Assembly (NCBI GenBank): GCA_051294375.1
Contig: CM119265.1
Location: 4,223,025-4,287,024 of the forward strand
Source of the DNA: Paraspadella gotoi
Lineage: Eukaryota > Animalia > Chaetognatha
Length of the DNA: 64,000 bases
Reading direction: 5' to 3'
Shown: in pieces, positions 3,323-56,126 of the stretch
Numbering within the stretch: the first letter of the stretch is position 1
Layout of the letters: each line of letters starts with the position of its first letter
Program-made: the position numbers and the translations under genes
Notes under the pieces: generated by a model
Told to the model about the DNA's origin: nothing
Databases searched by the model: none
The model's input: only the letters and a program-made list of their open reading frames with translations

Positions 3323-3375
<53 letters not shown>

Positions 3376-5371: not shown

Positions 5372-5415
<44 letters not shown>

Positions 5416-8196: not shown

Positions 8197-8293
<97 letters not shown>

Positions 8294-11200: not shown

Positions 11201-12482
11201 AAATTTTGTGTGTGCGTAGGGAAGTGTGTGATTGAGCTAGATATGAAGTTTCGATGGAATCGTCCGAGTGGAAATGAGTTTAAATGGAAAAAACAAAAAA
11301 ATATATTTCATATTTGAATGCCAATTACTCCTAAGTGGATGGGGCGATTGGTATGAAATTTTGTATTTACGTAGAAAAGTGTGTGATTAAACTTGAAATC
11401 AAGTTTCGATGGAATCGTTTGAGTGGAAATGAGTTTAAATGGAAAAAACAAAGAACCTGTTTCACTAATTGATTATGCTTCTTTTTCTTTTTATTTTAAA
11501 TGTAAATGCAAGATGTATTAATTAATCAAATAATTAATCAGTTAATTAATAAATTAGTCAATTAATTAATCAATAATTAATTAATCAGTCAATTATTCAA
11601 TCAAAACAAACATTTCGGATCAAATTAATTAATTAATTGCCAAATTAATTAAATATTTAACTTGAATTAATTTGATATTAATCAATTAATTAATTAATTA
11701 CCGATAATGATCGTGGGCAGATCCGATATTGTTTGCTCAAACTTGTTTCAAATCAATTTTAAACATTTGAAACTTTTCCAACAACCTCAGAGGGCTTCTA
11801 TGATAATAAGCATACAAGAAAAAGTTGTTTTTGCCAAAAAAGAGAGGTTTATCCGGAAATTTAGTCCATTTGGATCAAAATTTCACCAAAATGGACTAAT
11901 TCACTTTACCATGATCGTATCATATTAAAATAACCAAATAAAATGTAAAGAAAAATTTGAGAGCCCTTCAGACTATCGGATTCCTGAATTCGAAGTTTTT
12001 TTTAAAATCACAAAATGTGTTTAATGCTTTTGCAACGGCCGGGAAACGAACCCGGGCCGCCAGCGTGGCAGGCGAGCATTCGACCGCTGAACCACCGATG
12101 CTGTTGTATAGCCTGAAATTCTAATTACAATAACATTTTAGAAGATAATTTAAACAAGAAAAATAAAGGAAGCAAGTGTAACAAAGACATTGCAAAAGTC
12201 TTAGCATTTACTTTTTTTTCTTACCCCTTTCCCTCCACCCCTCATCACTTCCAGGTTCAGTTCATCACCAACGTCTGTCTCCCCTGCTACCGCGTGTTGA
12301 GCCGCGTCGTTCCCGAGGCTGAAGAGATGGTCGCCGGCGCCGAGACCAACCTCGCGCACTGGCGTGCCCTCGCGGCCGATCTCGACAAATGGCGTGACAT
12401 GGCGCCACGGGCGAGTGACGCTCCTTGCGGCAGCGGGGGAAGGGGCGTGAAGGATGAGGAGGCGGCCGACGAGACGGGGTGA
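1527..12482 (+). CDS. PDE10A: GAF-domain class I cyclic nucleotide phosphodiesterase, PDE10A-like (5'-partial, multi-exon)
   Basis: Exons read by hand: ~1527/1536-1657, 2131-2242, 2457-2537, 2626-2906, 3375-3530, 4814-5056, 5798-5977, 6165-6254, 7398-7539, 7925-8160, 12255-12482(TGA). GAF-B motifs: [55 protein letters not shown]...F...DE. Catalytic motifs: [52 protein letters not shown]10 assignment is from recalled similarity to human PDE10A. Confidence 0.9.
3528..4400 (+). repeat. 32-nt minisatellite, ~27 copies, each containing AAG|GTGAG(C/T)
   Basis: Unit GTGAGCGGGAAGAGTTTGATTGGTTGTTAAAG starts exactly at the donor of PDE exon 3375-3530. Confidence 0.95.
5334..5416 (+). mobile_element. 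Helentron-like family B terminal fragment plus (GAC)n tract
   Basis: TTTTTATCGAGCC...GGCTATA followed by (GAC)n. Related ends occur in reverse orientation at ~27270-27367, ~29445-29552 and ~33570-33700. Confidence 0.5.
6353..7095 (-). mobile_element. Non-autonomous Helentron (DINE-1/HINE-like) family A, near-complete copy
   Basis: One end is the hairpin AGTCGGGATCTGC-TGAAA-GCAGATCCGACT next to an A run. The other end has the subTIR TGTCGGATCTGC and the short stem-loop GTTTGAGCAAAC. Internal ~120-150 nt tandem units (CCATTTAAACTCATTTCCAC...). This architecture matches DINE-1/HINE elements. Confidence 0.8.
8175..8292. repeat. (AAT)n microsatellite
   Basis: About 39 units just after the PDE donor at 8160. 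Confidence 0.97.
8601..8674 (-). pseudogene. tRNA-Ile(AAT)-derived pseudogene
   Basis: Reverse complement GGCCGGTTAGCTCAGCTGGTTAGAGCGTGGTGCTATTAACGAAAAGGTCGCGGGTTCGCGCCC matches animal tRNA-Ile over the 5' two-thirds. The anticodon reads ATT, and the anticodon stem and 3' acceptor strand are degraded. Confidence 0.8.
8735..9360. mobile_element. Imperfect palindromic (fold-back/MITE-like) element
   Basis: Nested inverted blocks centred near 9045: AAGGCGTAGT/ACTACGCCTT, GAACAACAT/ATGTTGTTC, GCAGTAGGC/GCCTACTGC, GCAGATTTG/CAAATCTGC, TTAAGTGGGT/ACCCACTTAA. A second partial copy lies at 56127-56483. Confidence 0.8.
9458..9500 (+). pseudogene. tRNA-Val(AAC)-derived 3' fragment
   Basis: GCCTAACACGCAGAAGGTCCCAGGGTCGAAACTGGGC matches the anticodon and T arms of tRNA-Val(AAC). 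The 5' half is degenerate. Confidence 0.65.
10186..10703 (-). mobile_element. Helentron family A, partial copy
   Basis: Same internal units, GGAC microsatellite and terminal hairpin as 6353-7095. Confidence 0.8.
10972..11749 (+). mobile_element. Helentron family A, near-complete copy
   Basis: TTTTTAGTCGGATCTGC...GCAGATCCCGACT, then (GTCC)n, then internal units, ending GCAGATCCGATATTGTTTGCTCAAACTTGTT. Confidence 0.85.
12031..12101 (-). tRNA. tRNA-Gly(GCC), full length but probably a pseudogene
   Basis: Reverse complement GCATCGGTGGTTCAGCGGTCGAATGCTCGCCTGCCACGCTGGCGGCCCGGGTTCGTTTCCCGGCCGTTGCA. About 5 differences from the recalled invertebrate tRNA-Gly(GCC), including A58 and stem mismatches. 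Confidence 0.85.
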
Positions 12483-35523: not shown

Positions 35524-38500
35524 TCAATTCGTGGAATTGGCTTCTTTGACTAGAGAACTGAAAGCTGACTTGACGTCGTTCAAAAGTTTCCTCGTTTCGT
35601 CAAACTCGACGATTTTCCCGTCATCCAATACCAGGATTTTGTCGTAGTCTAAAATGGTGTTGATTCTATGGGCGATGGTGATTATGGTGCAGCCAGCGAA
35701 CTCTTTACGAATCGTTTCCTAAATTGGTAAAGGGAATGATATTTAAAAATTATTGGTTGCATTATAATCATTATTATTTGTTTTATTATCATAATAACAT
35801 CTATAAAACCTGAGAGTTATCAAAAGGATAGTGGTTATTCTGGATAAAACTCGGGGGAAAATGAGAACAAATATTTAAAACTAGATTCCAAAACGAATGT
35901 TCAATGTTTTTTTTAAAATAATGTTGTTCACTCTTAGAATAAAATAGAATAGATAAAAATTTTCTTAAACTAATTACGTGATATTGCTAAGGGTAGCCCA
36001 ACTCAATGGGGTGGGTCAAGAATATAGAGCGAGTACATGCTCAAACGAATATTTATACATTTTTAAGAAGCGAATGAACGGATGCCTTTTGTTTGCAGAT
36101 CTTAGTCGAGGCATAATAGCTCATTTGCATAACGCGAGCATTAAAGTTTGAATGGGTAACAAACTCTTATTTCTTGTGAATATATCACTATTACAATAAA
36201 GTTACCCTTAATTGTCTTGAAAATAAATCTTAAAAAATCTTATTGATATTTTTAACAAATAATTCGAGTTTATTGTTTTCAAACGGAGGATTGGTTATCA
36301 AAATTTACACAAGTATTTAGGACACAACCTAAGCTTAGAAATATTGTTAAATTGGCAGTGCACTGATAATTAAGATATCTATCACTAAGAGTAGCCTAAC
36401 TCAGTATTAGGGGTAGCCGCACTCAAAAATTTAGAGTACATGCTCAAACGAAAATGTATACATTTATAAGTATACTTTCAAGGTACAAACAATTTCTTAT
36501 ACGGCTAGTAATACCCTAGTAATTATTTTTTTAATATTTATTTATAGATAAGAAAGTCCAAAATTCTGATACGGTCCGCAGAGCGGGCCCAGAATATTAA
36601 ACTGATTTTTGAGCATCGGAGGAGCGCTCAGTGCTTGCACGGCCTCCACCACGGGTCGTCCCGGTATTGCAGTACCTCCGGGATTGGCCCACCACCCATT
36701 GTGGAATTTAAAATATATATTTATAAATATTATTAATTAACATTGCATTATTTTATAATTTATTTCTTCCGGTGTTCGTAGTTAAACTCCCAAAGAACTT
36801 GCATAAATATACTTATTGGCTTTTCTTTCTTTGCGTTAATAATTAAATTTTTTTTAAATAAATTGTAGTTTACAACAAATACAAAAAACACACACCTCAC
36901 AGAAATATGAATCTCACGGAATCTCACCTGAATCAGGTCGTCAGTCTCCTGATCCACCGCCGCCGTCGCCTCGTCCAAGACGAGAATCTTCGCCCGCCGC
37001 AGCAACGCCCTCGCCAAACAGAGCAGCTGCTTCTGCCCGACGGACAAGTTGGTCCCGAATTCCGTGCAGCGGAACTCGATCCCTTCCGGTCGCGAGTCGA
37101 CGAAGGGCTGGAGATGCGCCAACTGGAGGACGCGGCGCACCTCGTCGTCCGATTTCTCCTCGAAAGGGTCCACGTTGAAACGAAGACTTCCCGAGAAGAC
37201 GACGGGATCTTGAGGAATGACCGAGATGCTCGACCGAAGGCGCCGCAAATCGACGCCGCCGATGACTCGCCCGTCGACGACGACGTCTCCCGGCGTCTCG
37301 GCCTCGACGACGCGAAAGAGCGCCAAGGCGAGAGTGGATTTTCCGGCGCCGGTTCGACCCACGACGCCGACACGTTGTCCGCCGGAAATAGAGAGTGTGA
37401 GTTTCTTGAGGACGAGATCGAGTCCAGATCGATAACGGACGCTGAGGTCATTGAAGACGATGTCGCCGCGATGAGGCCAAGTGGCGGGCGGATTAGAGTT
37501 GTCGGGCAGAGTGTCTTTGTCGGACAGAGTCTCGTCGTCGTCGTCGGCCACAGTCTTCGAAGGCTCGACGTCGAGGCGACTAAACTCGGCGATCCTCTCG
37601 ATGGCGACAAAGTGAGACTCGAACAAAGCGAGTTCAATCATGAGCCATTGAATGTGACCGTTCATGAGGAATGAGTAGGAGAGGCTGATTCCGAGGAGGC
37701 CTGACGGGAAGGGAAATGTGGGTGAGGTTTGGGTAAGTTGGGATTTTATTTTTACTTTTATTTTTTTATGTCTGTCTAAAATTATATTTTTAAAAAGACG
37801 TGTTAGTAAATTATTTTATTATATTAATAAGTGGTGCACTACATATTATTTTAGATTATATTTTATTTCATCTCTTACCCGGAGTTAAAGATGAATTCAA
37901 CAAAGTCAAGACGGCAGTAAAGTATTGCATAAAGGCGGCAATGCATTGGATACCCAACAGAATCCACGAATTGCAAGTCAAATCCGACAACCAGATGGAC
38001 GCGTTGGCGTCGATCAATTGGTGGCAATCGTTAGCGAGTTGCCTCTGAGCCTCGAAGGCGCGAATCGTGACCATCCCTTTGAGCGTCTCGTCGAATTTGG
38101 AGTAGACGGGGGATTTGGTGACTGCCTCTAACCGCTTCAATTGACGGGATGTTCGAAGGAAGAGTCTTTGCAGAGTGAAGAGAATGATGAGGGTGATGAA
38201 AAAGACGACGAGCATGTAGGGACTGATGATGCAGATGGTGACCATGATGGAAACTATGAGCAGAATACGATTGATAATATCTCGAGTCGTTTGGGGAAGT
38301 TGATCGTCCGCGATGTCCATGTCTTTGGAGAACCTGTTCAAAATTTATACAGAATGTGTAAATAGATACTTCAGAGGCGTTAGTATCTTAGTTAAGTACC
38401 TGTTTGTAATTCTCCCGACAGGAACCGTGTCAAAAAAGTGCATCGGCGCGCGAATGACTCTTTCAATCATAAGTTTATGAATCGTTTTACTGGATTGAAC

Positions 38501-41500
38501 GCTTCCAGCAAAGATAAAAAACGTACCGATCATAATCAAAAGGCCGCTAGATATACCCAAGATGCTGTAGATAAGTATGAAATGCTGAAAGTTGTTTTGG
38601 TTTGGATTTTTGGTCCAATCGGCGAGCCAGAACGAAGAGGAAACTTCTGCTGCCACGCCCACCCCGAAGATGAATGGGCCGAGGAAAAAAAAAGTCCGCG
38701 AGGCGTTTTTGACCCAAAAGAGAAATACGGACAAATCCGTGACGCCGTATTGAACGGCCTCTTTCTCCAAAAGTTTACCTGAACCGTTGATCGCGATCTT
38801 TTCATTTTGATCAGCTGGTTTAGGGTTTTTCATTTGCATTTCGTGATCATCACAATTTTCTCTCCATTTCGTCAGAGTGAACAAGAGACTTTCTGGATTC
38901 TTCATCAATTCATCGAATTTCCCAACTTCCATCAGACTTCCGTCTTTCAAGCACAAAATGAGATCAGCAGCTTGTAAGCAATTGATGTTATGAGTGACAA
39001 GGACTCTGGTTCTCTTTTTTAACAATCCATTCGGCCCGAGTAGATTTTGAAAGATGTGTTTTGCGACGTGGGCATCCACGGCGCTGAGTGGATCATCCAG
39101 TAAATAAAGTTGTTTATCCGCATAAGCCGCTCTCGCTAGAGCGACTCGAGCCTTTTGTCCGCCAGAAATGTTGACGCCATTTTCGCCGATCTCTGTGGAG
39201 TCACCGGCTGCCAGGATTTGTAGATCTGTCGAAAGCGCACAAGAAAATACGACAAGGTCGTATTGATCTTCAATGTAGCCTTTTCCAAACAACACGTTAT
39301 CTCGCAGCGATGCGTTAAAAATCCAGGGTTGCTGCGCCACGTATGCGATACTCCTATGGTCGACTTGGATTTCGCCTTCTTGCTTTTTCATTTCCCCCAG
39401 AATCGAAGCCAAAAGCGAAGACTTGCCAGATCCGACTGACCCAACGATACAAACCAGCGCACCGTGGGGAATTCGGAAATCAAGACTCTTGAGGGTTGGC
39501 GCCGTTAAATTCCATGAGCAATCGGCCTTTGCCAACTGAATTGCTATTTGTGGCTCAGATGGAAACGAGCGCTCTTGAGAAACTTCTTGTTCAATCAAGA
39601 AGTTTTCGATTCTCTCACCGGAAATCAATAATTGAAGAAACATTTTTATCAATCTCGGCATCAGGTAGAGAGGCTTTCTCATAATATTAATGAGGCTAAG
39701 AGTTACGAAAGCAACTTCGGCAGAAAGTAAATTATTTTCTGAGATAACGACGTACAGTGAGAATGAAAGTATGGCCATTATCATTGGCACAGTATTGAAC
39801 ATAAAATTGACTGATGCCGTTGCCATGTGAGCGTACAATAAGAACTTTGTTTCCGTTGCTCTTAATTGTGAAATTTTTTTCTGAAAAATAAATTGTACAT
39901 GATTACGGGCCTTACGGCTTTCTACTTGGACCATGAACAACAACAGCTTTTGGTTAAAATTGGCCTTCAATCTTAAAACAAGTTTGAGCAAACAATGTCG
40001 GATCTGCATTAATTAATTATTTATTTAATAATTAATTTATTCAAGTTTATTATTTAATTAATTTGGCAATTAATTAACTAATTTGATCCGAAATGTTTGT
40101 TTTGATTGATTGATTGATTAATTAATTAATTATTGATTAATCAATCGAATAATTAATTAATTGATTAATTATTTGATTAAATAATACATCTTGCATTTAT
40201 ATTTAAAATTAAAAAAAAGAAGCATAATCAATTAGTGAAATAGGTTCTTTGTTTTTTCCATTTAAACTCATTTCCACTCAAACGATTCCATCGAAACTTG
40301 ATTTCCAGTTTAATTACACACTTTTCTACCCAACTACAAAATTTCAAGTCAATCGCCCCATCCACTCATGGTAATTGGTGTTCAAATAGTGAAATATATT
40401 TTTTTGTTTTTTTTTTTATTAAACTCATTTATACTCGGACGATTCCATCGAAACTTCATATCCAGCTCAATCACACACTTCCTACCCACACATAAAATTT
40501 CATTCCAATCCATCAATCACATCACGAGTAATTGGTGTTTTTTGCTTAGGTGGGACGGACGGACATCTTTTTTTTTTTTGCATAATTTTCATAATTCGAT
40601 GTTCTGACATGATATAAGTGAATGCTCGACAAGATTGGGGGGGCGGACCGACGGACGCGACAAAAGTGAATTATAGAGTCGGGATCTGCTGAAAGATAAA
40701 AAAAAGTGCCAAATAATTCAACAAAAGGAGCATTAGGTTTATTTTTCAAAAACTAACCTGAAACGATTCTTCCCATGCATAAAGTTTTATAATTTTGATG
40801 CCATGAAAAATTTCATTTATATACTTCACTCGTTCATCTTTCAAGATAAGATTTTTTTTCTGATATTTGACTTGAAGTTTTCCAAAAAAGAAATTCAATG
40901 GGATAATAAGGATCAAACATGAAATGGCTCCCAATGTGGCAAGTCCGATTTGACGCCATATTAGATAACAACAAAATATAATCTAAAAATAAATTCGAAA
41001 ATCTTGACAAGAAAATGAAAATAGCCTTATGATGTAAGAATAGAAAACTTACCTCTAAAGGTCCATAAATTAATATGAATAAAAATTTTGTGAATAACAA
41101 ATATTTCATCGCATCGACACTCATCAAATTGAGTATTTTGCCGGAGGTAGTTTTGTTAAAAGAAGAATTTAAACGAAGGCTCTTGTGGTATATTGCCTAA
41201 AGAGTTTATTAAATATTAATTTTGCCTATTTTTCTCTTTAAAAATAGATAAAAATATTTCGTCAATACCTGTATTATAGTATTCTTTATTGCCAAACCCG
41301 TCGTTTCCGCAATAAGCATGAAATGCGAATAGCTAAATGATTTCATTAATTCTGTTATAAGAATCAAACTAGAAAAGAAAATTCCTTTCCAAATCCATTC
41401 CTCGTAAGACATTTGAAACTTAATTGCAGAATGGTCGCCTGGCAACGAGTCATTAGCCTTCACTTCCGAAAGATCATTGTGCGGTTTTTTGGCCACGTGA

Positions 41501-43211
41501 ACCAACATCAATCGAAATATTATTGGCTGCAATATAACTTGTATCGACGGCAAGGATCTAATGATAAACATAAGAAGTAGACGAGGCCAAAAACATTTTA
41601 ATAAGATCCAATGGAAACTTCTAGAAGGTTTTGGGCATTGTTCTTCAATTTGTTCGTGGCTTTGAATTAGTAAGTGAGAATGTTATGAATATTAAAATAA
41701 TTTTTTTTTATCCAAATTTGCAAATATATTTAGACACCCTTCTTAATACAATTTATTAGTTTGAATAATCAACAATTTGAAAATCGCTTTATACCAGCTT
41801 TATGCATGAAAATTTCAAAATTTCTCTAGTTTCAACCTTTAAAAAAATCTTTATGAGCTTAATTAAAACATTACACTTCAAGTTCAACGCATTCGATAAC
41901 ACTCTGACGTACCAATCAATCTTAATTGCTTGTTTCGCGAGATTGTGATGTTTATCGAATAAACTCTTGAGTACATTGATTTTACAGAACGATGGAAGTT
42001 TTCCAACGTCACCAACTTGAATGGCAGCCTTTCTCGCTTTCATGATCAACGGAACTATGAACCAAAAAAGCAGCTTGGAGAGAATGCTTGCTTCCTGCAT
42101 AAGATCCTCACAATTGCTTGGCTGATTTTCCCGATCTGAGAAGCACGACAGAATGAAACTTATTACGCCGAGACCAAATATTGCGTAAAATATAATAAGT
42201 TTCCCTTTTTCTGGTTCGATTAGTTGATCCTGTGATAATAATTATGAATACAATTCCGTACTTGTGATTTCGAATAGTTTTGTTTTTCCAAAATCGCTCA
42301 CCTTCTGATAAAGTTCTCGAATAAGAACGCCGCCCTGACCACCGCCGCCGCCACCGCCACCCGCCGATCTGATCAAATGCTGCAGCATCAGTGCAGCAAC
42401 GATCGTCAATGCCGCAAAGAAAACGAAATTCGCTTCGGAATTCTTGACGAAGCGACGTCGCTCCTCCAGGGTAAGTATGAGCGAGAAGAGGATCGCGAGG
42501 AGCAAGAGTAACGGAGTTAGGAATTCTACTGGAGCGAGGAGAGAGAATGGGGAAGTGGGGCAGAGTGGTGATGAGGAGTCGAAGGGAGAGACGGACTGAC
42601 GGATGGATTCCGCTTCGGTCCGGTCAATGACGATGACGAGTATGAGGTCTGTCAACAAAAAATTCATAAGTTTGTGAATTTGGTTTTATTAGGTGTATTG
42701 TTTGTTTGTCGTTAAATATTTTTTTAGTAAATTGAAATATTAACAAACATGGTTTCTTTGCCATAATCTAAAGAATAAAGTTTTAACGAATGCGTAAAGA
42801 AAAAAATACATATAATACTGTACGATACTAACAAATGGAATATGAAATAAACATCATGAAATAATTACATCTTTCATTCAACTTCAACAAACCTGCTGCT
42901 ATCAGCATCAACAAAACGACGCCGATCAACAATTTTCCCGCGAAAAGTTTCGACGAATTTCCCGGCGCCAAAAGTTGAGTCCAGCGCCGCTTTTTGACTC
43001 GCGGCGTCGCAAAGGACAAAGGGGCGAAGAACATCAGCGCCGCTAACGGAACAGCGCCCAAGAGAAGCTTCAGAAGGCACGGCGTCAAATCGGGCGCCGG
43101 CGTAAACCACGAAACGGCGTCGTCCCAAAGCGGCGTCCTCGCACAAAGCGGCGTGGCGAAGACGGCGTTGGAATTCGACGCCGGAAAGTTTGAGTCGGAG
43201 GAGCAATTCAT
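35524..43211 (-). CDS. ABCC/MRP1-like ABC exporter (long form with TMD0)
   Basis: Exons ~43211-42893, 42648-42302, 42229-41913, 41659-41269, 41196-41053, 40982-40758, 39880-38400, 38333-37879, 37700-36928, 35718-35524(TGA). N-terminal WD...[10 protein letters not shown]; NBD1 GSVGSGKSS / [14 protein letters not shown] / [11 protein letters not shown]; NBD2 GRTGAGKS / LSVGQKQL / LDEATAAVD / [13 protein letters not shown]. Confidence 0.93.
36565..36693 (+). ncRNA. U2 snRNA 3' fragment (5'-truncated pseudogene), antisense in the last ABCC intron
   Basis: TCTGATACG, stem IIb GGTCCGC-AGA-GCGGGCC, Sm site ATTTTTG, stem III, and stem-loop IV CCCGGTATTGCAGTACCTCCGGG. The first ~60 nt, including the branch-point recognition sequence, are absent. 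Confidence 0.85.
39978..40697 (-). mobile_element. Helentron family A copy in an ABCC intron
   Basis: Same termini and internal units as 6353-7095. Confidence 0.85.
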
Positions 43212-46629: not shown

Positions 46630-46829
46630 TCATCCGTTGAGCAGAAAAAACTTTGCCCTACTATTAAATTCACACGCGAATCTGAGATGAATGTTGTGAG
46701 CGCCTCTGGTGACCCGGATGAGCTTAGAGTTTTTAATGTTTTCGTGAATGAAACCCGGATGTGATCCACCATGGAGTCGGATTCACTGTGGAGAATGAGG
46801 GTCGGGCAGACGATGTCCTTCAAAGAATC
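46630..46829 (-). pseudogene. Last exon of a BPHL/valacyclovir hydrolase-like alpha/beta hydrolase, frameshifted
   Basis: Acceptor TTCCCAG|GAT. LKDIVCPTLILHSESDSMV, then in another frame AHNIHLRFACEFN...FLLNG*, resembling BPHL PEGKHNLHLRFADEFN. Could be a pseudogene or an assembly indel error. Confidence 0.7.
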
Positions 46830-46937
46830 CTGGGAAGAGAGAAAGGAAGTAGGGGATTTATATTGGGAGAAAGACCGACGTGAGTGGACGACTAGAGTCG
46901 TTGTCCTGGAAATGATAACGATAATCCCTCAATTGGA

Positions 46938-47965
46938 TGTTATTCTTACTAACTACTAGCCTAATTGCCGTTAACTAGCCTTGAAAATTTTATCAATCGT
47001 ACTTTGTAAGTATTTCCCTAACTTACCTTGAAAATCTCTTACACCGTATGTCAAGCTTACGACAACTTACCTTGCAAATGTTGCCGTTGTTCCAAAAGCG
47101 AAATGAATGATAGTATGGTGGNNNNNNNNNNTAACGTTGTCCATTTTTCCGCGAGTGAACGTTCTGCTTTCATCGTCTCCATGGCAACGAGCTCCCCCCG
47201 TTAACGTTGCCGATTCTCCCGCGAGTGGACGTTGACGCTCCGCGGCGTCCCGCTTCCGGTTCTGGCATCACCTCTCTGACGACGATCTAGACTGCTCTCT
47301 GCTTCGTTTCCACGACGACGCTCCGCTTCGTCTTGTTGATAACTTTTGACGAGACTCGTTCACGAAATCTTTGACCGGATTCTTTGACGGGAATCTGTGG
47401 CATGCTTGTGTCGACACACCTTAACAACCCGCGGCTCCGTCATTGACGACGGACTGGAACTTGACGAAGCACTGCAACTCTCGGCTGGCTTCTTGATGAT
47501 GATTTGCAGCAATCTTTGATGGCTCTTCGATGGATTATAACAGAAACTTGTTCGGCTCTATGACGTTGAGTCGAAACGATCTTTGGGCCGGCTCTTTGAC
47601 GAGGCGTTGCGACATCGTAAACTTTTTTGAGGATCGCGTTCGCTGGTTCCGGTTTCACTTTCTCGTCAGCGTCTAGACTTGTCTTTATCTTTATCTTTGT
47701 CTTTATCTTTCCACGCCACGGCGCCCGGCGTCGTCTCCTCGACGACGCGCTGGGACTGACGCCGCGAATGATGCTCTGCTCGATGACGCGTTGTTCTGTT
47801 CGATGACGTTCTGCTCTGCTTGACGCTTCGCTTCGCTTGACGCTTTACCGTACCGTCTTTCATTTTTTCTCCGTCTTTGTCTTGTCCGGAACGATGTCTT
47901 GGGTGCATGTACGTGTACGTGCGTGTGCGGGCATGTGCGTGCGTGCATTCGAGACCGGCTTAAAT
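46938..47965 (-). repeat. Putative 3' LTR of the BEL/Pao element
   Basis: Follows the PPT and ends ...GAATAACA. Contains two AAG|GTAAGT donors (47021-47029, 47065-47073). It starts TA rather than TG, includes a small N gap, and there is no 5' LTR to compare. Confidence 0.5.
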
Positions 47966-48475
47966 ATTTCTCTCCCCCTTTCTTGCACTCAAGAAAAATT
48001 TGTTTATTGAATTGTTCCTTTTCTGCTAAACTGCTCAAAGAAAATAAAACGAATTTTTTAATTACGAATTCTTTAAGAGCAAAAAATTTCTTATTTAAAT
48101 ACAGTGAATTAAATAATACGTAATCCGATCTAGCTAGTTATGCTTTCCTATTTTCTCTAATTGGTTACTCGTTACAGGTTACTTAGTTTAACTATCTTCT
48201 CGTCGTTTGTTTACCTCCGTATTCGTTCTTAAATCTTTTGTTTACTCTAAATTTTCCTAATTACCGTGCGTAAATTTTTTAAAGGTAAGTTATTTTTCTT
48301 ATTTTGTTAAGATTAATTTGTTAATGTAATTATCGACCTCGTCACAATTGACGTGGCCCTTCCCTAGCCTATTTTTATTTTAGGATTTATTTTTATAGGT
48401 TCCTGATCGGAATTACTTCGCGCACGACCGTAAAAACAAACAAATTAACAACAATGATGAAATTTTCAAGAATCT

Positions 48476-49747
48476 TTAACTTTTGCGTTTACGCGTTGAC
48501 TCTTTCGCCCACGACGGATAATTATCACGTCGTGGCGGTTCCTGCGGTGGTGGAGGTGGCGGTGGTGACGGAGGCGGCAACGGAGGCGGCGTCGGCGATG
48601 GCATCGGTTGCAGTCTCGGCAAGCGCTGTTTCTTGAAAGGTGGAGCTTTCGGTCTGGGCGGCGATTTCACCAAATTTTCTTTTCCTGGTGGTGGGCGAAA
48701 CTTCGAAAGTCCGTGATTTCCAGACGAAGAGCGTGTTCCATCTGTGGAAGGTGACCTTGGATGTGGGCACGATAATCGATCAACTTTGTCTTGGAGTTTA
48801 CTAAAAGCTTGCGCCCAATGACGTTCCGTGGTGGCACGTCGCTGCTCTGCCTCTTTTCGTTCCAGATCTAGCTTTAATTCTGCCGCTATCCTCCCTTTTC
48901 TCTCCTTCTTCAATTCTTCCTCCAATTTTTCTATCCTCCTCTTCATCTCCCCCTTCTCCACCCTCGCCTCTAATAGTTCTCTCTCCTTCCTCTTCAACAT
49001 CACGTTCTTGTCGGTGACGACGCGTTCAGCTAACGGCGTTGGAGTCGTCGAAATGGCGGTGGGATTTGCCATCACCTCCGTCGCCTTTTTGGAAACTGGC
49101 GTCGGCGGTGTCGTTTTCGGCTCGTCGATGATGACGATTGTGGACGACTTTTCTTTCGTCGCTTCATGCGCAGGTGTCGTTTTTGTCTTCACTACCGATG
49201 CCATCTCCTTCAGCACCTTTTCATCGGTCCCTTTACGTATGGCAGTGATCAACGCGTCAAAGTCCTCGTCAGTCCATCCGCGACTCCTTGCCACTTTTCG
49301 CCACGCCCTTCTGATCCTGTATATCATATTCTTCTTACCCGGGGGAATTTGGAATCCAAGCATGAAAAGTCTTTCATCTCCCGATCCGACGATTATTGGG
49401 ATTGTCGAATCCGTCATTGCACGACGATGTGGAGGAAGTTCTCCCCGTTTGAGAAAGCGTTCGACTGGATCTTCCGTTTCGGCACAGGATTCTTGGATTT
49501 GTTGCGGCGCCACTTCCGCTTCCGCTTCCGTTTCCGTCGCGTCAGTAAATGACGCTGGCTCCGCTGATGTACTGACTTCTATTGTGGTTGCAGAACTTGT
49601 CGTCAAATCGATGTCCAAGATCTCCGTCTCGAACAAGTCAGCTGCTGCGTCCACTGCTCCGTATACCGTATCTCTTTCTTGAAGCGACGGCGTCCACCAC
49701 ATGAGTCCTTCAAGGACTCCCGCATCGCTTTCGTCAAACAAGTTCAT
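48476..49747 (-). CDS. BEL accessory ORF6, ~423 aa, unknown; coiled coil with Pro-rich basic tail
   Basis: Uninterrupted ORF from ATG 49747 (MNLFDES). Heptad-like K/E-rich segment, PPPLPPPSPPPPPPP and basic ends (KKQR, RKRK). No signal peptide or TM segment is evident. Confidence 0.75.
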   Translation of the reverse strand: MNLFDESDAGVLEGLMWWTPSLQERDTVYGAVDAAADLFETEILDIDLTTSSATTIEVSTSAEPASFTDATETEAEAEVAPQQIQESCAETEDPVERFLKRGELPPHRRAMTDSTIPIIVGSGDERLFMLGFQIPPGKKNMIYRIRRAWRKVARSRGWTDEDFDALITAIRKGTDEKVLKEMASVVKTKTTPAHEATKEKSSTIVIIDEPKTTPPTPVSKKATEVMANPTAISTTPTPLAERVVTDKNVMLKRKERELLEARVEKGEMKRRIEKLEEELKKERKGRIAAELKLDLERKEAEQRRATTERHWAQAFSKLQDKVDRLSCPHPRSPSTDGTRSSSGNHGLSKFRPPPGKENLVKSPPRPKAPPFKKQRLPRLQPMPSPTPPPLPPPSPPPPPPPQEPPRRDNYPSWAKESTRKRKS

Positions 49748-49909
49748 TTTTATAATTGTTTTTCTCGACTCAAGCACAATATAATGTTTTCACCTAATTA
49801 ATAAAAATTCATGTGAATTAATACGAAATCATTAAATAACGTGTATTTTGAATTTAATTTTCAATTGTATCACTCCAAGAAATAATGTCTAATTTTTTGA
49901 TCATTGAGT

Positions 49910-50254
49910 TTATTCGTCTTGGAATAAGATTCTCAAACTTTCGAGAGTTTCCTTTTCTTCCTTTTGTTCTTTTCTTTCTCGAGCTTCCTCTTCCAGTTGT
50001 CTGAATATGTTTTCCCAATTATAATGTTGTAATCTTTGGATTCTTGCTTCGATTGCTGGATTACGTTCGTCTTCGTCGACATAAAAACTGAAACTCTCAC
50101 CGTTTCCGTCTGTTTCTGAATCTGTCCTTTGTATGACTATGGTCGGTCTTTCGATCTCATATGTTCTTTCGACTATGGTGTCCTCGGTGTCTTCAATTTC
50201 TTTTTCGTCTTCGTCGTTGGAATTCTTTTTCTCTGGATCTTGTTGGACGCCCAT
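49910..50254 (-). CDS. BEL accessory ORF5, ~114 aa acidic protein, unknown
   Basis: Runs from ATG 50254 (MGVQQD) to a TAA within AATAAA. Purine-rich coding bias flanked by AT-rich spacers. Confidence 0.65.
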   Translation of the reverse strand: MGVQQDPEKKNSNDEDEKEIEDTEDTIVERTYEIERPTIVIQRTDSETDGNGESFSFYVDEDERNPAIEARIQRLQHYNWENIFRQLEEEARERKEQKEEKETLESLRILFQDE

Positions 50255-50353
50255 GATTGTTGTCAATAAATGAGTTTTTTGTACTTTTTGCTAATTAAAA
50301 CAATTTAACCAATGAACAAAAATTCAATACGAAACCTTCCATCTCTTTTCGAA

Positions 50354-50740
50354 TTATTCCAATATGTTGTAATTGTATTCTATCGTTTCCGTAAACATGA
50401 TGTGATATCCTGGCGGCGTTGGTTCGTGATTCGCCTCTTCCTCTCCTTCGTTCCTCGGATCGTTGTTTTCCTCGTTGGCGGCTTCGTCCTCGATTTCTTC
50501 TTCTTCATCTTCGTTTTCGTTTTCGACTTCTTCCTCTCCTTCGTCACTTTCTCTGGAAGCCGTCAAAAATTCTTGAATTTGTTCTATGAACATCTCTCCC
50601 ACTTCTTGCATTCTATCGACGAAATGTTCTGCCGTTAAAATGTCTCCCGGATTTGCCCTTCTTTCTCCTGCATCCACGGACCCCGGTCTTGCTCTGATGA
50701 TTCTTTGTATTCTCGTGATTTCGATTGTCTCTTCCGACAT
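50354..50740 (-). CDS. BEL accessory ORF4, 128 aa, highly acidic, unknown
   Basis: AAAATG start preceded by the acceptor TTGTTTTCAG. Poly-E/D tract. Confidence 0.65.
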   Translation of the reverse strand: MSEETIEITRIQRIIRARPGSVDAGERRANPGDILTAEHFVDRMQEVGEMFIEQIQEFLTASRESDEGEEEVENENEDEEEEIEDEAANEENNDPRNEGEEEANHEPTPPGYHIMFTETIEYNYNILE

Positions 50741-50925
50741 TTTAGACTGTGACTGAAAACAAATTAAAGCATTAATACGTTAAAGTTTTGATCGTAAATT
50801 TTGGATGACTTTTGTTTTTTCTACAATGTTTCTCGTTAATCCGCATTTCTTTGAAATGCTCCTCCTCCTTTTTGCCGTTTAAATTTTGAATTTTCTTATT
50901 TTTCTTTTTTCAGTTTAAATCGAAT

Positions 50926-51264
50926 TTAATACATTTCAATGTCTTTATTCCGGTCTTTGGTCTCCTTCGAGAAGATTTTTTCGTCGTCTTCGATGACTTT
51001 GCTCCATCTTTTCAGGTAATCGACTCTCCACTTTGTTTCGTCATATTCTTTGTAAAGAGGCACACCTAATGCTATATAATCAAAGTATATCCCGTCTAAC
51101 CATTTCTCGTTCCATTCCAGTTTCATCAAGGTGTGTTCGAGATTGTCCGGGATGTCCAGCTTGGCTCGATCTCGCATCTGTTCTCGAAGCGTCTTGGCTT
51201 TTAATGGATTCGTCATCTCGGTCTCGGTGAGTTTAAGTTTATTTTCCATTTGCTCATGAGCCAT
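50926..51264 (-). CDS. BEL accessory ORF3, 112 aa, unknown
   Basis: ATG to TAA (within ATTAAA). Aromatic-rich core WNEKWLDGIYFDYIALG suggests a folded domain. Confidence 0.65.
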   Translation of the reverse strand: MAHEQMENKLKLTETEMTNPLKAKTLREQMRDRAKLDIPDNLEHTLMKLEWNEKWLDGIYFDYIALGVPLYKEYDETKWRVDYLKRWSKVIEDDEKIFSKETKDRNKDIEMY

Positions 51265-51351
51265 ATTACTTGGTATTGCTAAACTAAATTAACAAACACT
51301 TCATAAATTGATAATTATTGAAATGAAATTATTTGGAAATAGATTTTTCAT

Positions 51352-51732
51352 TTAATTTTTCTTTCCTTTCTGGTATTCTCCAATCTTTTTTATCGTCTTG
51401 GTGGTTTCGATGATTCTTACTTTGTTACGTTCTTCGATCATCTCGTAATACCTTTTTCTTTCGGGAAACGATTGCTTCGCCCTTTCAAACATGATTTTGA
51501 GTCGTTCCATGTTTTCGACCTTTTTGCTTAGGTCATTGATTGCTTTGTCTGGACATTCTTTGGCCTCTATTTCTGCTTTTGCTTTTTCTTCTTCAATCTT
51601 TGTCTCCTTCTCCAGCAACACCAGATCCAACACTTTGTACTCTCTGCCTTCTCCTGGTTCCTCTTTTTCAATTTGTTCCCATTTTTTTTCGATATCGTCC
51701 CACTTTTTAGCGATGACTTTAAATTTTTCCAT
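51352..51732 (-). CDS. BEL accessory ORF2, ~126 aa, K/E-rich helical protein, unknown
   Basis: Runs from ATG 51732 (MEKFK) to a TAA within ATTAAA. Confidence 0.65.
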   Translation of the reverse strand: MEKFKVIAKKWDDIEKKWEQIEKEEPGEGREYKVLDLVLLEKETKIEEEKAKAEIEAKECPDKAINDLSKKVENMERLKIMFERAKQSFPERKRYYEMIEERNKVRIIETTKTIKKIGEYQKGKKN

Positions 51733-51824
51733 TTCTCTAATGTCTAATGAATTAAACAAACAATTAACAATAAGTTCGAATTCAAAAAGAAAAAAAACAA
51801 CTAATGTTTGTAACTTCGGCTTTT

Positions 51825-52235
51825 TTATTCTTCCTTTTCGAATGCTGATTCTTTTTTCTTTTCGCTTTTTTCGTCATCGTCCGAACTTTGTCCATTCTCG
51901 ACGATAACGTCATATTTGCTGTCGTCGTCCACCATTTTCTTGAAATTGGTTTCTTCTTCTGGTACTTTAAAGCACTCCTCGTATATCTGGTTGAGATCTT
52001 CTTTTTTCTCAATTACACTCGGCTGTAAGTAGATCGTCTTGTATTCCTTTATTATTTTCTTCATATCCTCTCGTCTTCGATTTGTCGCTTTCAGAATCAA
52101 ACTCATTTCTTGTTCTGGCTCGTATTCCCAAGATTTTACGTTCTCAATCTCTTCTTTTAAATCTTCCATCCAAATGTTTAGGGATTTATCGAAATTTTCG
52201 TGGAATCGGTATTTCACTTTGTCGCGGAGGTCCAT
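51825..52235 (-). CDS. BEL accessory ORF1, 136 aa, K/E-rich, unknown
   Basis: ATG lies 160 nt after the pol stop. TAA within AATAAA is followed by a T-rich tract. Confidence 0.65.
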   Translation of the reverse strand: MDLRDKVKYRFHENFDKSLNIWMEDLKEEIENVKSWEYEPEQEMSLILKATNRRREDMKKIIKEYKTIYLQPSVIEKKEDLNQIYEECFKVPEEETNFKKMVDDDSKYDVIVENGQSSDDDEKSEKKKESAFEKEE

Positions 52236-52394
52236 CTTTCCTTTATTTAGCGTAATTCTAAATTTTATTAATTTACTGAGTTTTCGTCACACTTTGAATT
52301 CTTATTCGCTTAAAATTTTTTATTGTACAGTTTTTTCTATTTATAACGTTGTACTTATTTTTTAGTTTCTACGGCGCGACTTCAATGTGAGTTC

Positions 52395-55300
52395 CTATTC
52401 GAGTTCGAGCGCCACCAACGCGTTGTGATGACGTCGAAAAGTTTTTCCATCCGGGAGTCGTACGACGGCTTCTCTCTTCCGCGGCCCGTCTCCTTTTACT
52501 TCGATGACTCGTGCCGTTCTCCATTTGTCGCGCGGCGCGTTCGGTTCCACGAGCAAGACCATTTGCCCTTCTTGCAGATTCTCCGACGATGTCCTCCACT
52601 TCGTGCGTTCCTGCAATTGGACCAGGTACTCCGTTAACCATTTTTGCCAAAATTTATCTGCCGTCTCTCTCACTTGTCTCCATGTCGCTCTCATACAATC
52701 TCCTTCTGACGTTGCGTACGGTAAAATAGTTAGAGACGTTGACGTATATAAGTATGGATACAATAGGTTCATGGGCGACAATGCAATATCGCTAAGCGGC
52801 ATCAGATGACTCATGTGTGATCGGGCGTCTATTCAGAATACCTGCGACTTCATCAATATCGTTGCGAACGTGTCGATGTCCGGTTCGGAGGCAACGCGCG
52901 CCGTCAAGTGCTTCTTGGTTTCTTTGACGAGCCTTTCCCACACTCCGCCCCAATGCGGTGCGGTTAGGTGGACCGAAAATCCATGAAATCCCTTTTTCGG
53001 CTATTCTTTCGTTCACCTTTTCGTCCTCTTGAATTCTTTTCAATTGTTTTTCGATCTCGTTGTTGGCGCCCGCCAGATTTGTTCCGTTGTCCGACACGAG
53101 CGTACGTAATCCTGGGTATACATTCTTAAAACGTATTAGTGCATTTAACATTGATTGTGCGGACATGTCTTTCAGAATTTCAAAAGTAATGGCTCTTGTC
53201 GTCATGCATGTAAATAAAACTACATTTTTCTGTTCAGGCCTCTCCCTGCGTGTCTCACCTGGATTGGGCCGAAGCAATCTAGTCCGGTCGTCTCGAACGG
53301 GATCGCTTGATTTACCCTGAATTCTGGCAATTCTCCCATCTTTTGCGGCGTTGGCGTTTTGAAATTTCGCTGACAAGTGACGCATCGGCGAATGACTTTT
53401 CGACGGCGGATCTACCTCCTAGCAAGGTGAACTTTTGACGTAGCGTATGGAAAGTCGCACATGCACCTGCGTGATAAAGTTTCTCATGTTCGTATCTTAT
53501 ATGCAATCGACGTATTCGTCATCTTTTGGTAAAATGATTGGGTATTTTGCGTCATACGTCAAGCTCTTACTATTTCCTAATCTCCGCCCGTTCTCATCAT
53601 CCCTTCTTCATCAATAAACGGACTCAGTGAAATTATTTTCGAGTTTCTATTTCTCACTCTCTATGTGCATCGGGCGTCGTCACTCCCATTTTTATCAACT
53701 CGAAAATCTCTTTTTCGAATTTCTTTCTTTGGATCGATTTCACGATTTTTTTCTCAGCCCTTTCAAACTCTTGTCTCGTTAATCTTATTTTTTCTTTCTC
53801 CGTCTCTTCTCCTTTTTTCTTCTTTCTTTCGAACTCGATTATCTTTCACTATTGCCTTTGTGAAATACGCCACCCGTCTCACCTTTTTTACCCATTCGCT
53901 CACCTTTTCTGTCACTCTCATCACCCAATCTGCGTTCTCTTTTTCGTTCCCTTTCTCTGGATACTCTCTTGTTGCTGCGAAAATGAGTTCATATGCACTA
54001 AATTCGCTATCTTCGTTCACGGCGCAATGTTACCTGTATTTCTTTTTTCTTTTTTATGCTTCCAGATCGTTGGTGATGGGCCAATTTTCCCTCCTTTGGT
54101 TCAACCAGTTGGGCCCGTTGTGGAATGTCGCCCATGCTTCCGTGGTTGGCACAATTCCTCTGCTTGTAAGATCCGCTGGGTTCTCGTTGCTTGGTACGTA
54201 AAACCATTCGCTTGGCCTGGATAAAAGTCTAATCGTTTTTAAACGAAAATTCTCATACGTTTTGAATCTTTTTGTCCAGTCTCGGATCCATCTGATTACC
54301 GTCACCGAATCCGTCAACATGTAAATCTCATCGAATTCCTCACCTGATTCTCGGATCATCAAGTCTCTTAACTGCGCAGCCAGTCGTGCGGCGTTCAATT
54401 CCAAACGTGGCATCGAATCCAGGTGGTCAGTTGATTCGATAGAATGATTTTTTCTTGCATCTTGATAGGCAACACATGAGCTTTAGCGAATAGCAAAGTT
54501 GTATGTCCTCTCTCTCCATTCTTGTTCTCCTTTTTTAAATAAATTGCGGCGCCGTAACCATCGAGACACGCATCACAGAAAACGATTAACTTCGTCGTTA
54601 CGCACTCCAAACCAGGATCGACGTCCATCTCGAGATTCGCAATCTTTTTTTATGTGAACAAGCTTCTTTCTCCATTCTTCGAACGCCTCGTGGAGATCCT
54701 CCGGCAACTTCTCGTCCCAATCAAGTCCTGCACTAACGACTTTTTGTAAAATTATTCTTCCCTTCAGCACGACCGGCGCAACGAACCCGAGCGGATCAAA
54801 AACGGACGCGACCAACTTCAACATCTCTCGCCTTGTTTTCACTTCGTTTTCTGCCTTTTTCGTTACACGCGCAAAAAATACATCTCGTTTCGAATTATAT
54901 CCAACTCCCAGTACCTTCGAATCGTATTCGTCGATCGACGGATCCTCCGGCAGCGCGTTTTCGGCCATCTTCCCGAGATCATCTTCCAGTTCTTCGTCCG
55001 CGACTGTTTCGATCACTTTGTCCTCACCATCGTCGTCAGCGTTGTCCGACAAAATTCTCTCGTCCGACGCTTGCCATTTCTCCAATTCGAAACCTCCCTT
55101 TCTCATCGCCTCTGTCATATCCTTTCTCATTTTTCTCGCCTCCTTGATTCCGTCTAATGAATCCAAGAAATCGTCGACGTACACTTTTAAGAAAAACGCG
55201 GCTATCACTTCCGGCGAAAATTCTTTGTTTTGACTCAGTCTCTTACCATGATATTGCAGCACGAAAGTTGTTATACCTGGGCTTCCGGCGCCACCGAACA

Positions 55301-56026
55301 CGTGGACGAGCGGCTCGTGCACCTCCAACTCCTTCATCGACTTATCCTTGTACCAATGGTACCTGAAAGCGGCCACGTCTTTTGGATGGAGCTCAACTTG
55401 GTGAAAAAATCCTTTAATATCTCCGGAAATAGTATACCTTTTTCGGCGAAATTTTAACAACATGCCTACTAAAGGTGTTAGGTTATCGGGACCAGCGATC
55501 AAAAAATCATTTAAACACTTTCCTCTTACTTTCGACGACGCATCCTGGCAAATCCGAAATTTGCCGGGCTTGTCCGCTCTGGTGACGACAAGTAACGGCG
55601 CGAAAAACACAGGCAAATCGGCGGACGGATTCTCGACTTTAGCTTTTCTCGCATGACCTAATTTTATGGTTTCTTCCATCGTCTGGAACACCCCTTCAAG
55701 CACCACCGGATCTTTTCTCATCTTATTCGCTAGCTTCCTCGCTCGGTTCTCCGCGCTCTTTGTAACTTCTTCTTTCATCTTAGCGAACATCTCCGCGGTT
55801 TTCTCCCTTCCGTGTTTCCAAGGCGACGGCGCAACATAATGTCCCGTCGACTCATTGAAGTAAATTTCTCTCTCAAGCTGTTCAATCGCGAACCCATCTT
55901 GCACGGATGGATGTTGGACCTCGGACGGATACAGTTCGGACCCTTTCAACAAGAAATCATGACGAAACATATTCGCGATCAAATACTCCAGTTTCTCGTT
56001 CTCTGGCAACGTCGAACAACAACTCA
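52395..56026 (-). CDS. pol: BEL/Pao pol (RT, Pao RNase H, integrase, C-terminal DUF5641-like region) with multiple frameshifts
   Basis: RT: GKFRICQDAS, GDIKGFFHQV, FGGAGSP, YVDD. Pao RNase H: VFDPLG, FCDAC..YGAAIY, PRLELNAA, TDS, NPADLTSRG. Integrase: HEKLYHAG, LFTCMTTRAI, SDNGTN, ILNRRP, FWQKWLTEYL. Split over about 7 ORFs by short indels. Confidence 0.93.
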
Positions 56027-56126
56027 NNNNNNNNNNNNNNNNNNNNNNNNNNNNNNNNNNNNNNNNNNNNNNNNNNNNNNNNNNNNNNNNNNNNNNNNNN
56101 NNNNNNNNNNNNNNNNNNNNNNNNNN

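What the first reader, a model, noticed from the sequence alone, without database searches (positions are those of the whole stretch)
48476..52395. BEL/Pao LTR retrotransposon carrying a cassette of six non-env accessory genes
Seen: between the integrase stop (52395) and the PPT (~47970) are six co-oriented, intronless ATG-to-TAA ORFs of 136, ~126, 112, 128, ~114 and ~423 aa. They are separated by AT-rich spacers of only ~90-190 nt, and all six are open while pol has several frameshifts. None shows a signal peptide or TM helix; they are charged, acidic or coiled-coil, and ORF6 has a polyproline and basic tail. Known: BEL/Pao elements normally encode only gag-pol, and a minority add a single env-like ORF (roo, Cer7/Cer13, Tas). 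Inference: this is a complex BEL element with a multi-gene accessory module, possibly acting in host interaction, anti-silencing or particle trafficking, by analogy with lentiviral accessory genes or plant VANC proteins. I do not recognise any of the six proteins.
Basis: partly seen in the sequence, partly recalled or inferred. Interest (0 to 1): 0.88.

Follow-up and report, generated by a model that had tools for sequence, protein, structure and literature searches.

The report
Retrotransposon with six-gene operon-like cassette
A jumping gene of the BEL/Pao family in an animal genome carries six extra, unrecognised protein genes in a row, kept in the same order in related copies, and likely cuts one long RNA into six separate messages, whereas this family normally has only one to three genes.

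Summary
Observation confirmed. Six co-oriented ATG-TAA ORFs (136, 126, 112, 128, 114, 423 aa) lie between a BEL/Pao integrase and the purine tract; shuffles give at most one. Contigs from four runs (three studies) hold the cassette almost letter for letter, and also diverged sister cassettes in the same order. In these, spacers are replaced, all 11 listed indel sites fall in spacers, and 18 of 33 changed codons are silent (26% expected); ORF2 is the exception (4 of 16). New: every ATG follows a TTAAT..AG acceptor-like motif, and four of six stops sit in A(A/T)TAAA. This operon-like anatomy suggests spliced-leader trans-splicing (about 45%) or common-leader cis-splicing (about 30%); no RNA evidence was obtained. 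No homolog or fold was found; no ORF has a membrane helix. The contrast with the broken pol is not evidence, since the family's other pol contigs lack those breaks. The RT lies in a long-branch clade with separate gag and pol. The 5' LTR, gag and target-site duplication are lost in an assembly gap; the host phylum is unknown. The scan noted a similar acceptor-per-ORF layout in a Gypsy-like element of another genome, not in a BEL element.

The parts
52395..56026 (-). BEL/Pao pol remnant (RT, RNase H, integrase), broken by several single-base indels in this copy; its 5' part, gag, primer site and 5' LTR are lost at the N gap 56027-56126
   Evidence: Pfam RVT_1, Peptidase_A17, DUF5641; YVDD motif; gap; family contigs differ from this copy by indels
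52258..52271 (-). TTAAT..AG acceptor-like motif 22 nt before ORF1
51825..52235 (-). ORF1, 136 aa, charged; stop inside AATAAA
   Evidence: 8 of 11 listed codon changes silent
51733..51768 (-). 36 nt before ORF2 with U-rich tract and acceptor-like motif, still alignable in a diverged sister copy
   Evidence: record 12; (family D2)
51352..51732 (-). ORF2, 126 aa, highly charged; fastest-changing ORF; stop inside ATTAAA
   Evidence: 12 of 16 listed codon changes alter the residue, with no stop and no listed indel
51265..51301 (-). stretch before ORF3 with U-rich tract and acceptor-like motif, alignable in three diverged contigs
   Evidence: joints at 51298 and 51301
50926..51264 (-). ORF3, 112 aa; stop inside ATTAAA
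   Evidence: 3 of 3 listed changes silent; highest summed contig depth of the cassette
50741..50925 (-). ORF3-ORF4 spacer, 185 nt, shared by several contig variants with many indels; purine-rich core; acceptor-like motif at 50753-50767
50354..50740 (-). ORF4, 128 aa, acidic (31% D+E)
   Evidence: two pieces align in the sister contig
49910..50254 (-). ORF5, 114 aa, acidic (31% D+E); stop inside AATAAA; acceptor-like motif at 50291-50298
   Evidence: two pieces align in the sister contig
48476..49747 (-). ORF6, 423 aa: acidic N-terminus, small hairpin-plus-three-helix domain (about aa 115-190, low confidence), long helix aa 238-325 (likely a coiled coil), proline-rich tail, basic end; acceptor-like motif at 49794-49801
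   Evidence: in-ORF length changes in sister contigs are multiples of three
47985..48475 (-). 3' untranslated stretch; begins with the same U-rich motif as the spacers (48443-48454); partly shared by other family contigs
47967..47984 (-). polypurine tract
   Evidence: sequence; the same GAGAGAAATAT junction begins locus L001
46692..47966 (-). inferred 3' LTR, about 1.27 kb, with a 10-N gap at 47122-47131; AG/GTAAGT donor-like sites at 47070 and 47026, TATAAA at 46862, ATTAAA at 46737, ends ..CACAACA
   Evidence: summed depth rises over 47132-48022; both ends inferred, not shown

Best explanation
This is the 3' half of a BEL/Pao LTR retrotransposon that carries six conserved, non-envelope accessory genes between integrase and the purine tract, and it likely expresses them like an animal operon: one long RNA would be cut and polyadenylated at the end of each gene and given a spliced leader at the acceptor before the next start codon. 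Shown: the ORFs, their order in sister copies, purifying selection taken together, and the spacer motifs. Inferred: that the motifs are working splice and poly(A) sites, and that the leader comes in trans. An element with six internal acceptors and poly(A) sites must still export unprocessed genomic RNA. The most likely role for ORF6 (long helix, basic tail) is therefore a nuclear Rev/CERV-like factor that protects or exports it (inference, about 25%). The small charged ORFs would be intracellular regulators, with fast-changing ORF2 the best candidate for conflict with host silencing. Confidence is about 0.9 for an element-borne protein-coding cassette, about 0.75 for splicing-based resolution, and 0.45 for the trans-splicing version.
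For: ORFs beyond chance. Exact or near-exact cassette contigs in X1, X3, X4 and X7. One diverged 1988-nt contig of X4 links pieces of ORF6, ORF5 and ORF4 in order: 7 pieces, 551 of 561 aligned nt inside ORFs. Other contigs link ORF3, ORF2 and ORF1 with the spacer replaced. 18 of 33 changed codons are silent against 0.26 expected (p 4e-4, rough omega 0.29); 20 of 34 changes are at third positions; 11 of 11 listed indel sites are in spacers although ORFs make up 80% of the stretch. The three replaced segments inside ORF6 with known length change by -24, -24 and +18 nt; the ORF2-ORF3 spacer changes by +10. TTAAT-N1-8-AG lies within 55 nt of 6 of 6 ATGs: 0 of 3000 shuffles reach six, and 42 of 640 AT-rich host 55-mers have it. 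The repeat finder independently picked a 12-nt U-rich family, 5 of 5 copies in spacers or just after ORF6. 4 of 6 stops sit in A(A/T)TAAA (p about 0.002). The 34-37 nt before ORF2 and ORF3 stay alignable in sister copies. Spacers of 87-185 nt fall under the 250-bp operon criterion used for a trans-splicing animal (PMC12460157, passages).
Against: No processed RNA was seen: the only possibly-RNA run (X7, a guess) has contigs that run unspliced across three spacers. The host phylum and its ability to trans-splice are unknown; a host ABCC exon has no close named relative. The motifs were defined after looking. 0 of 8 host intron acceptors have the strict TTAAT motif and 2 of 8 a looser one, so the motif may not be a splice signal. 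Two perfect donors in the LTR fit cis-splicing equally well. Only 40 of 302 difference rows were shown, none in ORF4 or ORF5, and only stretches at least 80% alike align. ORF2 alone looks neutral (4 of 16 silent). No listed contig bridges pol and ORF1 by 31 nt on both sides; four end 24 nt inside pol. No homolog supports any protein function.
Confidence: 0.45

Rival explanations
1. Same element-borne cassette, but each gene would be expressed by cis-splicing of one common leader from the 5' LTR onto the six acceptors, with alternative poly(A) sites, as in complex retroviruses.
For: Two AG/GTAAGT sites in the inferred LTR and one near the start of clade locus L001. Spliced ORF3/env messages are the usual route in LTR elements (PMC5408684, section read; Tor3a in PMC4402516, passages). 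Needs no special host machinery.
Against: The two donors lie upstream of the only TATAAA in the LTR, so they may not be transcribed. Poly(A)-like hexamers at the stops and short uniform spacers are better explained if downstream genes are rescued after cleavage (inference).
Confidence: 0.3
2. Each gene, or a block of genes, would have its own internal promoter; the spacer motif would be a promoter or 3'-end element and not an acceptor.
For: TCA(G/T)T within 60 nt of 4 of 6 ATGs, reached by 33 of 1500 shuffles. The U-rich motif also follows ORF6, where no gene follows. Tor3b/4b env uses an internal promoter (PMC4402516, passages). Host acceptors lack the strict motif.
Against: TATA-like boxes in only 2 of 6 spacers, at chance level. 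The spacers are very short. The AG after TTAAT is present in 6 of 6.
Confidence: 0.13
3. The cassette is foreign DNA (a nested element, a viral fragment or host exons) lying in this one copy, or a domesticated remnant.
For: No full-length copy, 5' LTR or target-site duplication could be examined. This copy's pol is broken. The exact cassette is in all four runs laid, as a fixed locus would be.
Against: Several diverged cassettes in one run. The same A-rich sense-strand bias as pol. No terminal inverted repeat pair at the cassette ends. Starts and stops are kept in sisters. Summed depth over ORF2 in X4 (488-639) is of the order of pol (357-951; different identity floors, and depth is not copy number).
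Confidence: 0.08
4. The ORFs are an envelope-like or FAST-like cell-to-cell transmission module.
For: Position after pol is where env lies. Small fusogenic ORFs occur downstream of pol in some insect elements (bioRxiv 10.1101/2025.03.14.642691, passages).
Against: No hydrophobic helix in any ORF. No env or fusogen family hit.
Confidence: 0.04

Closest known systems
Belpaoviridae / BEL-Pao elements (ICTV profile PMC8742986, whole text; de la Chaux and Wagner PMC3118150, passages)
   Same: pol domain order RT, RNase H, integrase; Pao-specific Pfam domains; purine tract before the LTR
   Different: [quoted passage not shown]
C. elegans Cer19 with ORF2, and env-bearing nematode belpaoviruses Cer7, Cer13, Tas, Atlas (PMC7084138, PMC9094657, PMC554778; passages)
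   Same: extra gene inside an LTR element of an invertebrate
   Different: one extra gene (knuckle protein or envelope), not an array of six small non-membrane genes
Cer1 CERV (PMC10309623; start of abstract and passages)
   Same: element-encoded protein with coiled coils that serves export of unspliced genomic RNA; the model for the role proposed for ORF6
   Different: Gypsy element; CERV is spliced from within the polyprotein; no sequence or fold likeness to ORF6 was found or directly tested
Bdelloid Vesta/Juno ORF3s and Terminons (PMC5408684, one section); planarian Burro and fish foamy-like ERVs (PMC6431247, passages); DrFV-1 (PMC2774666, passage)
   Same: retroelements with non-env accessory ORFs, some coiled-coil, usually from spliced messages
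   Different: Gypsy, Penelope-like or retroviral lineages; mostly one ORF3, enzymes or polyprotein domains; none of the passages read describes an operon-like array in BEL/Pao
Trans-spliced animal operons (chaetognath genome PMC12460157, passages; C. elegans operons recalled)
   Same: co-oriented genes under 250 nt apart, with 3'-end and acceptor-like signals in the gap
   Different: host housekeeping genes with demonstrated leaders; here the genes sit in a retroelement and no leader has been observed
Oikopleura Tor elements (PMC4402516, passages)
   Same: downstream gene expressed either by splicing from the LTR or from an internal promoter
   Different: one env gene; not BEL/Pao

Membership tests
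BEL/Pao (Belpaoviridae) | RT, RNase H and integrase of Pao type in Gypsy-like order | tested here: met
   all 120 listed relatives carry PF05380
BEL/Pao (Belpaoviridae) | RT groups with BEL/Pao sequences | tested here: met
   25-tip clade, support 1.0, among 111 Pao-type tips; no named reference elements or outgroup were included, so no subfamily is assigned
BEL/Pao (Belpaoviridae) | gag with zinc knuckles and protease | not testable with these tools
   lost at the N gap 56027-56126; no genome held; clade locus L001 has a 766-aa gag-like ORF
BEL/Pao (Belpaoviridae) | two LTRs, primer-binding site, target-site duplication | not testable with these tools
   only one inferred LTR is in the window
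BEL/Pao (Belpaoviridae) | polypurine tract before the 3' LTR | tested here: met
   47967-47984; contig depth rises beyond it
BEL/Pao (Belpaoviridae) | one to three genes (descriptive trait in the ICTV profile) | tested here: not met
   six further ORFs; this is the respect in which it is a new variant
env-bearing belpaovirus | signal peptide, membrane anchor, fusogen homology | tested here: not met
   hydropathy; Pfam
SL trans-spliced operon | co-oriented genes under about 250 nt apart | tested here: met
   87-185 nt
SL trans-spliced operon | acceptor and 3'-end signal in each gap | tested here: inconclusive
   motifs enriched but defined after inspection; function not shown
SL trans-spliced operon | spliced leader on downstream mRNAs; host has SL RNA | not testable with these tools
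   no run on record as RNA; contigs only
Rev/CERV-like export factor (ORF6) | binds element RNA and promotes export of unspliced RNA | not testable with these tools
   architecture only
nested DNA transposon | terminal inverted repeats, transposase | tested here: not met

The most novel reading that the evidence does not exclude
A retrotransposon has built its own eukaryotic operon: six lineage-specific genes behind pol that are resolved into separate mRNAs by the host's spliced-leader trans-splicing, with a variable gene set among sister families and a self-encoded factor that rescues the full-length genome from that processing. It would be a 'complex' belpaovirus with a mode of gene expression not found for LTR elements in the searches made.
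Probability: 0.4. Interest if true: 0.9.

Novelty: new variant of a known kind. Interest (0 to 1): 0.74.

Why it matters
BEL/Pao elements are the least studied LTR group and are described as carrying one to three genes. A family with six conserved accessory genes shows that lentivirus-like complexity arose in this lineage too, and supplies six new proteins likely aimed at host RNA processing or silencing. If a spliced leader resolves the array, it is a direct, testable case of a mobile element exploiting trans-splicing and of an operon arising from scratch. One RACE or long-read RNA experiment separates the three expression models. The RT also marks a little-sampled clade with separate gag and pol, likely joined by stop-codon readthrough.

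Tried and rejected
No whole genome is held, so copies, target-site duplication and LTR pair were not examined. No RNA holder listed. Homologs: ORF6 gave 0 of 7992 candidates, 0 among 1.84 billion representatives, no Atlas hit for aa 90-200 and no PDB sequence hit below E 0.5. ORF3's best Atlas score was 0.81, chance level. None of the six ORFs reaches a Pfam cut-off (best E 0.008) or hits PHROGs. ORF1, 2, 4 and 5 were not searched in the large protein collections. The six ORFs hit none of 80 BEL loci (best E 0.56) and are not paralogs of one another (15 pairs, best 16 of 500 shuffles). Folds: single-sequence models have pLDDT 55 and 59; Foldseek found nothing at E 0.001 or below; the wider structural search did not complete. 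By eye, a Myb/SANT-like look of the ORF6 domain got no Pfam support, and a likeness to the L003 terminal ORF was no better than shuffles (2911 of 5000); both were dropped. No relatives in viral contigs. Rfam: one chance match. An automated purine-tract survey worked for only 5 of 35 loci and is uninformative. A tblastn meant to count the pol breaks gave one merged hit. The host phylum was not resolved.
Full report
Observation. The six ORFs exist as described, on the minus strand between the integrase stop at 52395 and a purine tract at about 47967-47984. Lengths are 136, 126, 112, 128, 114 and 423 aa, all ATG to TAA; spacers are 159, 92, 87, 185, 99 and 162 nt with GC 0.20-0.28. None of 1500 shuffles gave more than one ORF of 110 aa or more. 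No ORF has a membrane-length hydrophobic window; ORF4 and ORF5 are 31% acidic. The upstream ORF pieces match RVT_1, Peptidase_A17 and DUF5641. The element's contig lies between N gaps at 47122-47131 and 56027-56126. Gag, protease, primer site and 5' LTR are therefore missing, and no genome was held to recover them.

Is the cassette part of the family? Nine runs of one organism, from three studies, hold the stretch; none is on record as RNA. I laid four of them and two again on the cassette at an 80% floor. Window-type cassette contigs with 0-3 substitutions occur in all four; one of these runs may be the window's source. Diverged sisters also occur. One 1988-nt contig of X4 aligns in seven pieces across ORF6, ORF5 and ORF4 in window order, 551 of 561 nt inside ORFs, and in a short eighth piece in the ORF3-ORF4 spacer. 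Contigs in X1 and X4 join ORF3 to ORF2 with the spacer replaced, and ORF2 to ORF1. One contig has about 870 extra nt there, so the module varies. Summed depth over ORF2 in X4 is 488-639 against 357-951 over pol; in X1 it is 42-46 against 94-155. This fits many pol copies carrying some cassette, but depth is not copy number. Against: four contigs end 24 nt inside pol, and none listed bridges pol and ORF1 by 31 nt on each side. The link rests on the window assembly and that overlap. No terminal inverted repeats bound the cassette, and its strand bias continues that of pol.

Selection. One search showed 40 of 302 difference rows, the best supported: 34 in ORFs (33 codons) and 6 in spacers. 18 of 33 codon changes are silent against 0.26 expected (p 4e-4; rough omega 0.29), and none makes a stop. 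By ORF: ORF1 8 of 11, ORF3 3 of 3, ORF6 3 of 3, ORF2 only 4 of 16; ORF4 and ORF5 had no rows. All 11 listed indel sites are in spacers, though ORFs cover 80% of the stretch. The three replaced segments inside ORF6 with known length change by -24, -24 (probably one event) and +18 nt; the ORF2-ORF3 spacer changes by +10. The genes are thus kept as proteins, with ORF2 open but fast-changing. These breaks are decay or assembly error in this copy alone.

Expression signals. Each ATG is preceded, 11-46 nt upstream, by TTAAT-N1-8-AG. None of 3000 shuffles reaches six of six under either scheme, and 42 of 640 AT-rich host 55-mers have the motif. A looser branch-point-plus-AG pattern is also 6 of 6, with 0 of 1500 shuffles reaching it. 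I chose these motifs after reading the spacers. The repeat finder, however, independently returned a 12-nt U-rich family whose five copies are in four spacers and just after ORF6. Four of six stops lie within AATAAA or ATTAAA (p about 0.002). The 34-37 nt before ORF2 and ORF3 stay alignable in sister copies that have lost the rest of the spacer, although one sister aligns only 3 nt beyond the ORF3 start. Against a plain splice reading, 0 of 8 host intron acceptors have the strict motif and 2 of 8 the loose one. An initiator-like TCA(G/T)T is present in 4 of 6 spacers (33 of 1500 shuffles); TATA-like boxes and TTGTT alone are at chance level. Two AG/GTAAGT donors lie in the inferred LTR, upstream of its TATAAA. 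X7, only guessed to be RNA, has contigs crossing three spacers unspliced. I favour operon-like resolution by spliced-leader trans-splicing (0.45) over common-leader cis-splicing (0.30) and internal promoters (0.13). The reason is that paired 3'-end and acceptor signals in gaps of about 100 nt are what a cleaved polycistron needs. This is inference, and the host's phylum is unknown.

Proteins. No homolog was found for ORF6 or ORF3, nor for any of the six in Pfam, PHROGs or 80 BEL loci. ORF6 models with one confident helix (aa 238-325), a low-confidence hairpin-plus-three-helix domain and disordered ends; no fold match. An element with internal acceptors and poly(A) sites needs a way to export unprocessed RNA, as CERV does for Cer1 (PMC10309623, start of abstract and passages). 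That is my best guess for ORF6 (about 25%). The small charged ORFs would be intracellular regulators.

Lineage. The RT is at most 44% identical to anything found. In a FastTree of 111 RT regions (60 of 171 left out: P0061-P0120; no named references) it falls in a 25-tip clade with support 1.0 and a long stem: P0001-P0021, L001, L002, L033. These are unnamed metagenome sequences with pol-only ORFs of 1140-1458 aa. Of 80 BEL loci fetched, 14 had 2000 nt or more after pol, and none showed a similar array. Only L001/L003 among those belong to the clade, and they carry a different, apparently spliced 3' module. L002 shows no ORF in its 486 nt. The six-gene array is therefore so far confined to this host's family.

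Literature. The ICTV profile gives one to three genes for Belpaoviridae (PMC8742986, whole text), and few carry env (PMC3118150, passages). Extra non-env ORFs are known in Cer19 (PMC7084138, passages), bdelloid Gypsy elements and Terminons (PMC5408684, one section), Burro and foamy-like ERVs (PMC6431247, passages), DrFV-1 (PMC2774666, passages) and MDG1 elements (bioRxiv 10.1101/2025.03.14.642691, passages). Tor elements use spliced or internal-promoter env messages (PMC4402516, passages). Operons resolved by trans-splicing are common in some animals (PMC12460157, passages). PMC554778, PMC9094657 and PMC13524379 were seen as passages. Ten searches listed no title or abstract start describing a BEL/Pao element with a multi-gene 3' array or an LTR element with a trans-spliced operon. 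The library lacks most subscription papers and Repbase reports, the original Cer papers were not seen, and no supplements were read. The scan's own notes had nothing for this genome or sequence. They had one unchecked report of an acceptor-per-ORF cassette in a Gypsy-like element elsewhere and one of small accessory genes in Gypsy families.

Verdict. Real, under selection, and unusual: a new variant of BEL/Pao with a six-gene accessory array and operon-like signals. Expression route and protein functions are unproven. Interest 0.74.

Noticed in passing
L001:3775, L002:168, L033:321: In the three clade loci examined, an open upstream frame ends in TGA followed by CT(A/C), with pol continuing in the same frame for 300 aa or more; P0001-P0021 are pol-only ORFs without a gag knuckle. 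Likely gag-pol stop-codon readthrough (UGA-CUA context recalled), unlike the single ORF of most BEL loci fetched.
   Followed up: partly
L003:3027-6175 and L001:1-100: Another clade member has a different 3' module: a 155-aa ORF, an intron-like GT..AG stretch (4294-4687) and a 465-codon open frame with a charged helix-like run and RS repeats, ending just before an (AG)n run. L001 begins with (AG)n-AAATAT, the same junction as the window's purine tract. No significant homology to ORF6.
   Followed up: yes
window 51298-51440: One X4 contig has 1011 nt where the window has 141, so a sister family carries about 870 extra nt between ORF2 and ORF3, possibly further genes; its sequence was not visible.
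   Followed up: no
window 47201, L001:769 and about 8027, L002 about 4603: A motif ACGGGGGG(G)AG recurs in the non-coding parts of three clade elements.
   Followed up: no
window 47443-47959 (-): GC-rich start of the inferred LTR with open frames of 97-144 codons, including an 81-aa ATG ORF with no Pfam hit; a possible seventh gene in U3.
   Followed up: partly
window about 36900-43210 (-): Host ABCC1/MRP1-like gene with GT-AG introns; no close named relative, 29-52% identity among the 120 listed hits.
   Followed up: partly
window about 2450-12480 (+): Exons that look like a GAF-domain phosphodiesterase gene (family label recalled).
   Followed up: no
window 6644-63799, many places: Dispersed repeat family of about 150 nt in both orientations, an 18-nt tandem array at 34745 and 44398, and an exact 275-nt duplication at 27753 and 29940.
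   Followed up: no
L056: Three BEL gag-pol ORFs head to tail (1798, 1798 and over 1036 aa).
   Followed up: no
L012, L021, L054, L072: BEL loci with one long ORF (488-1156 aa) after pol; env or a second element, not examined.
   Followed up: no
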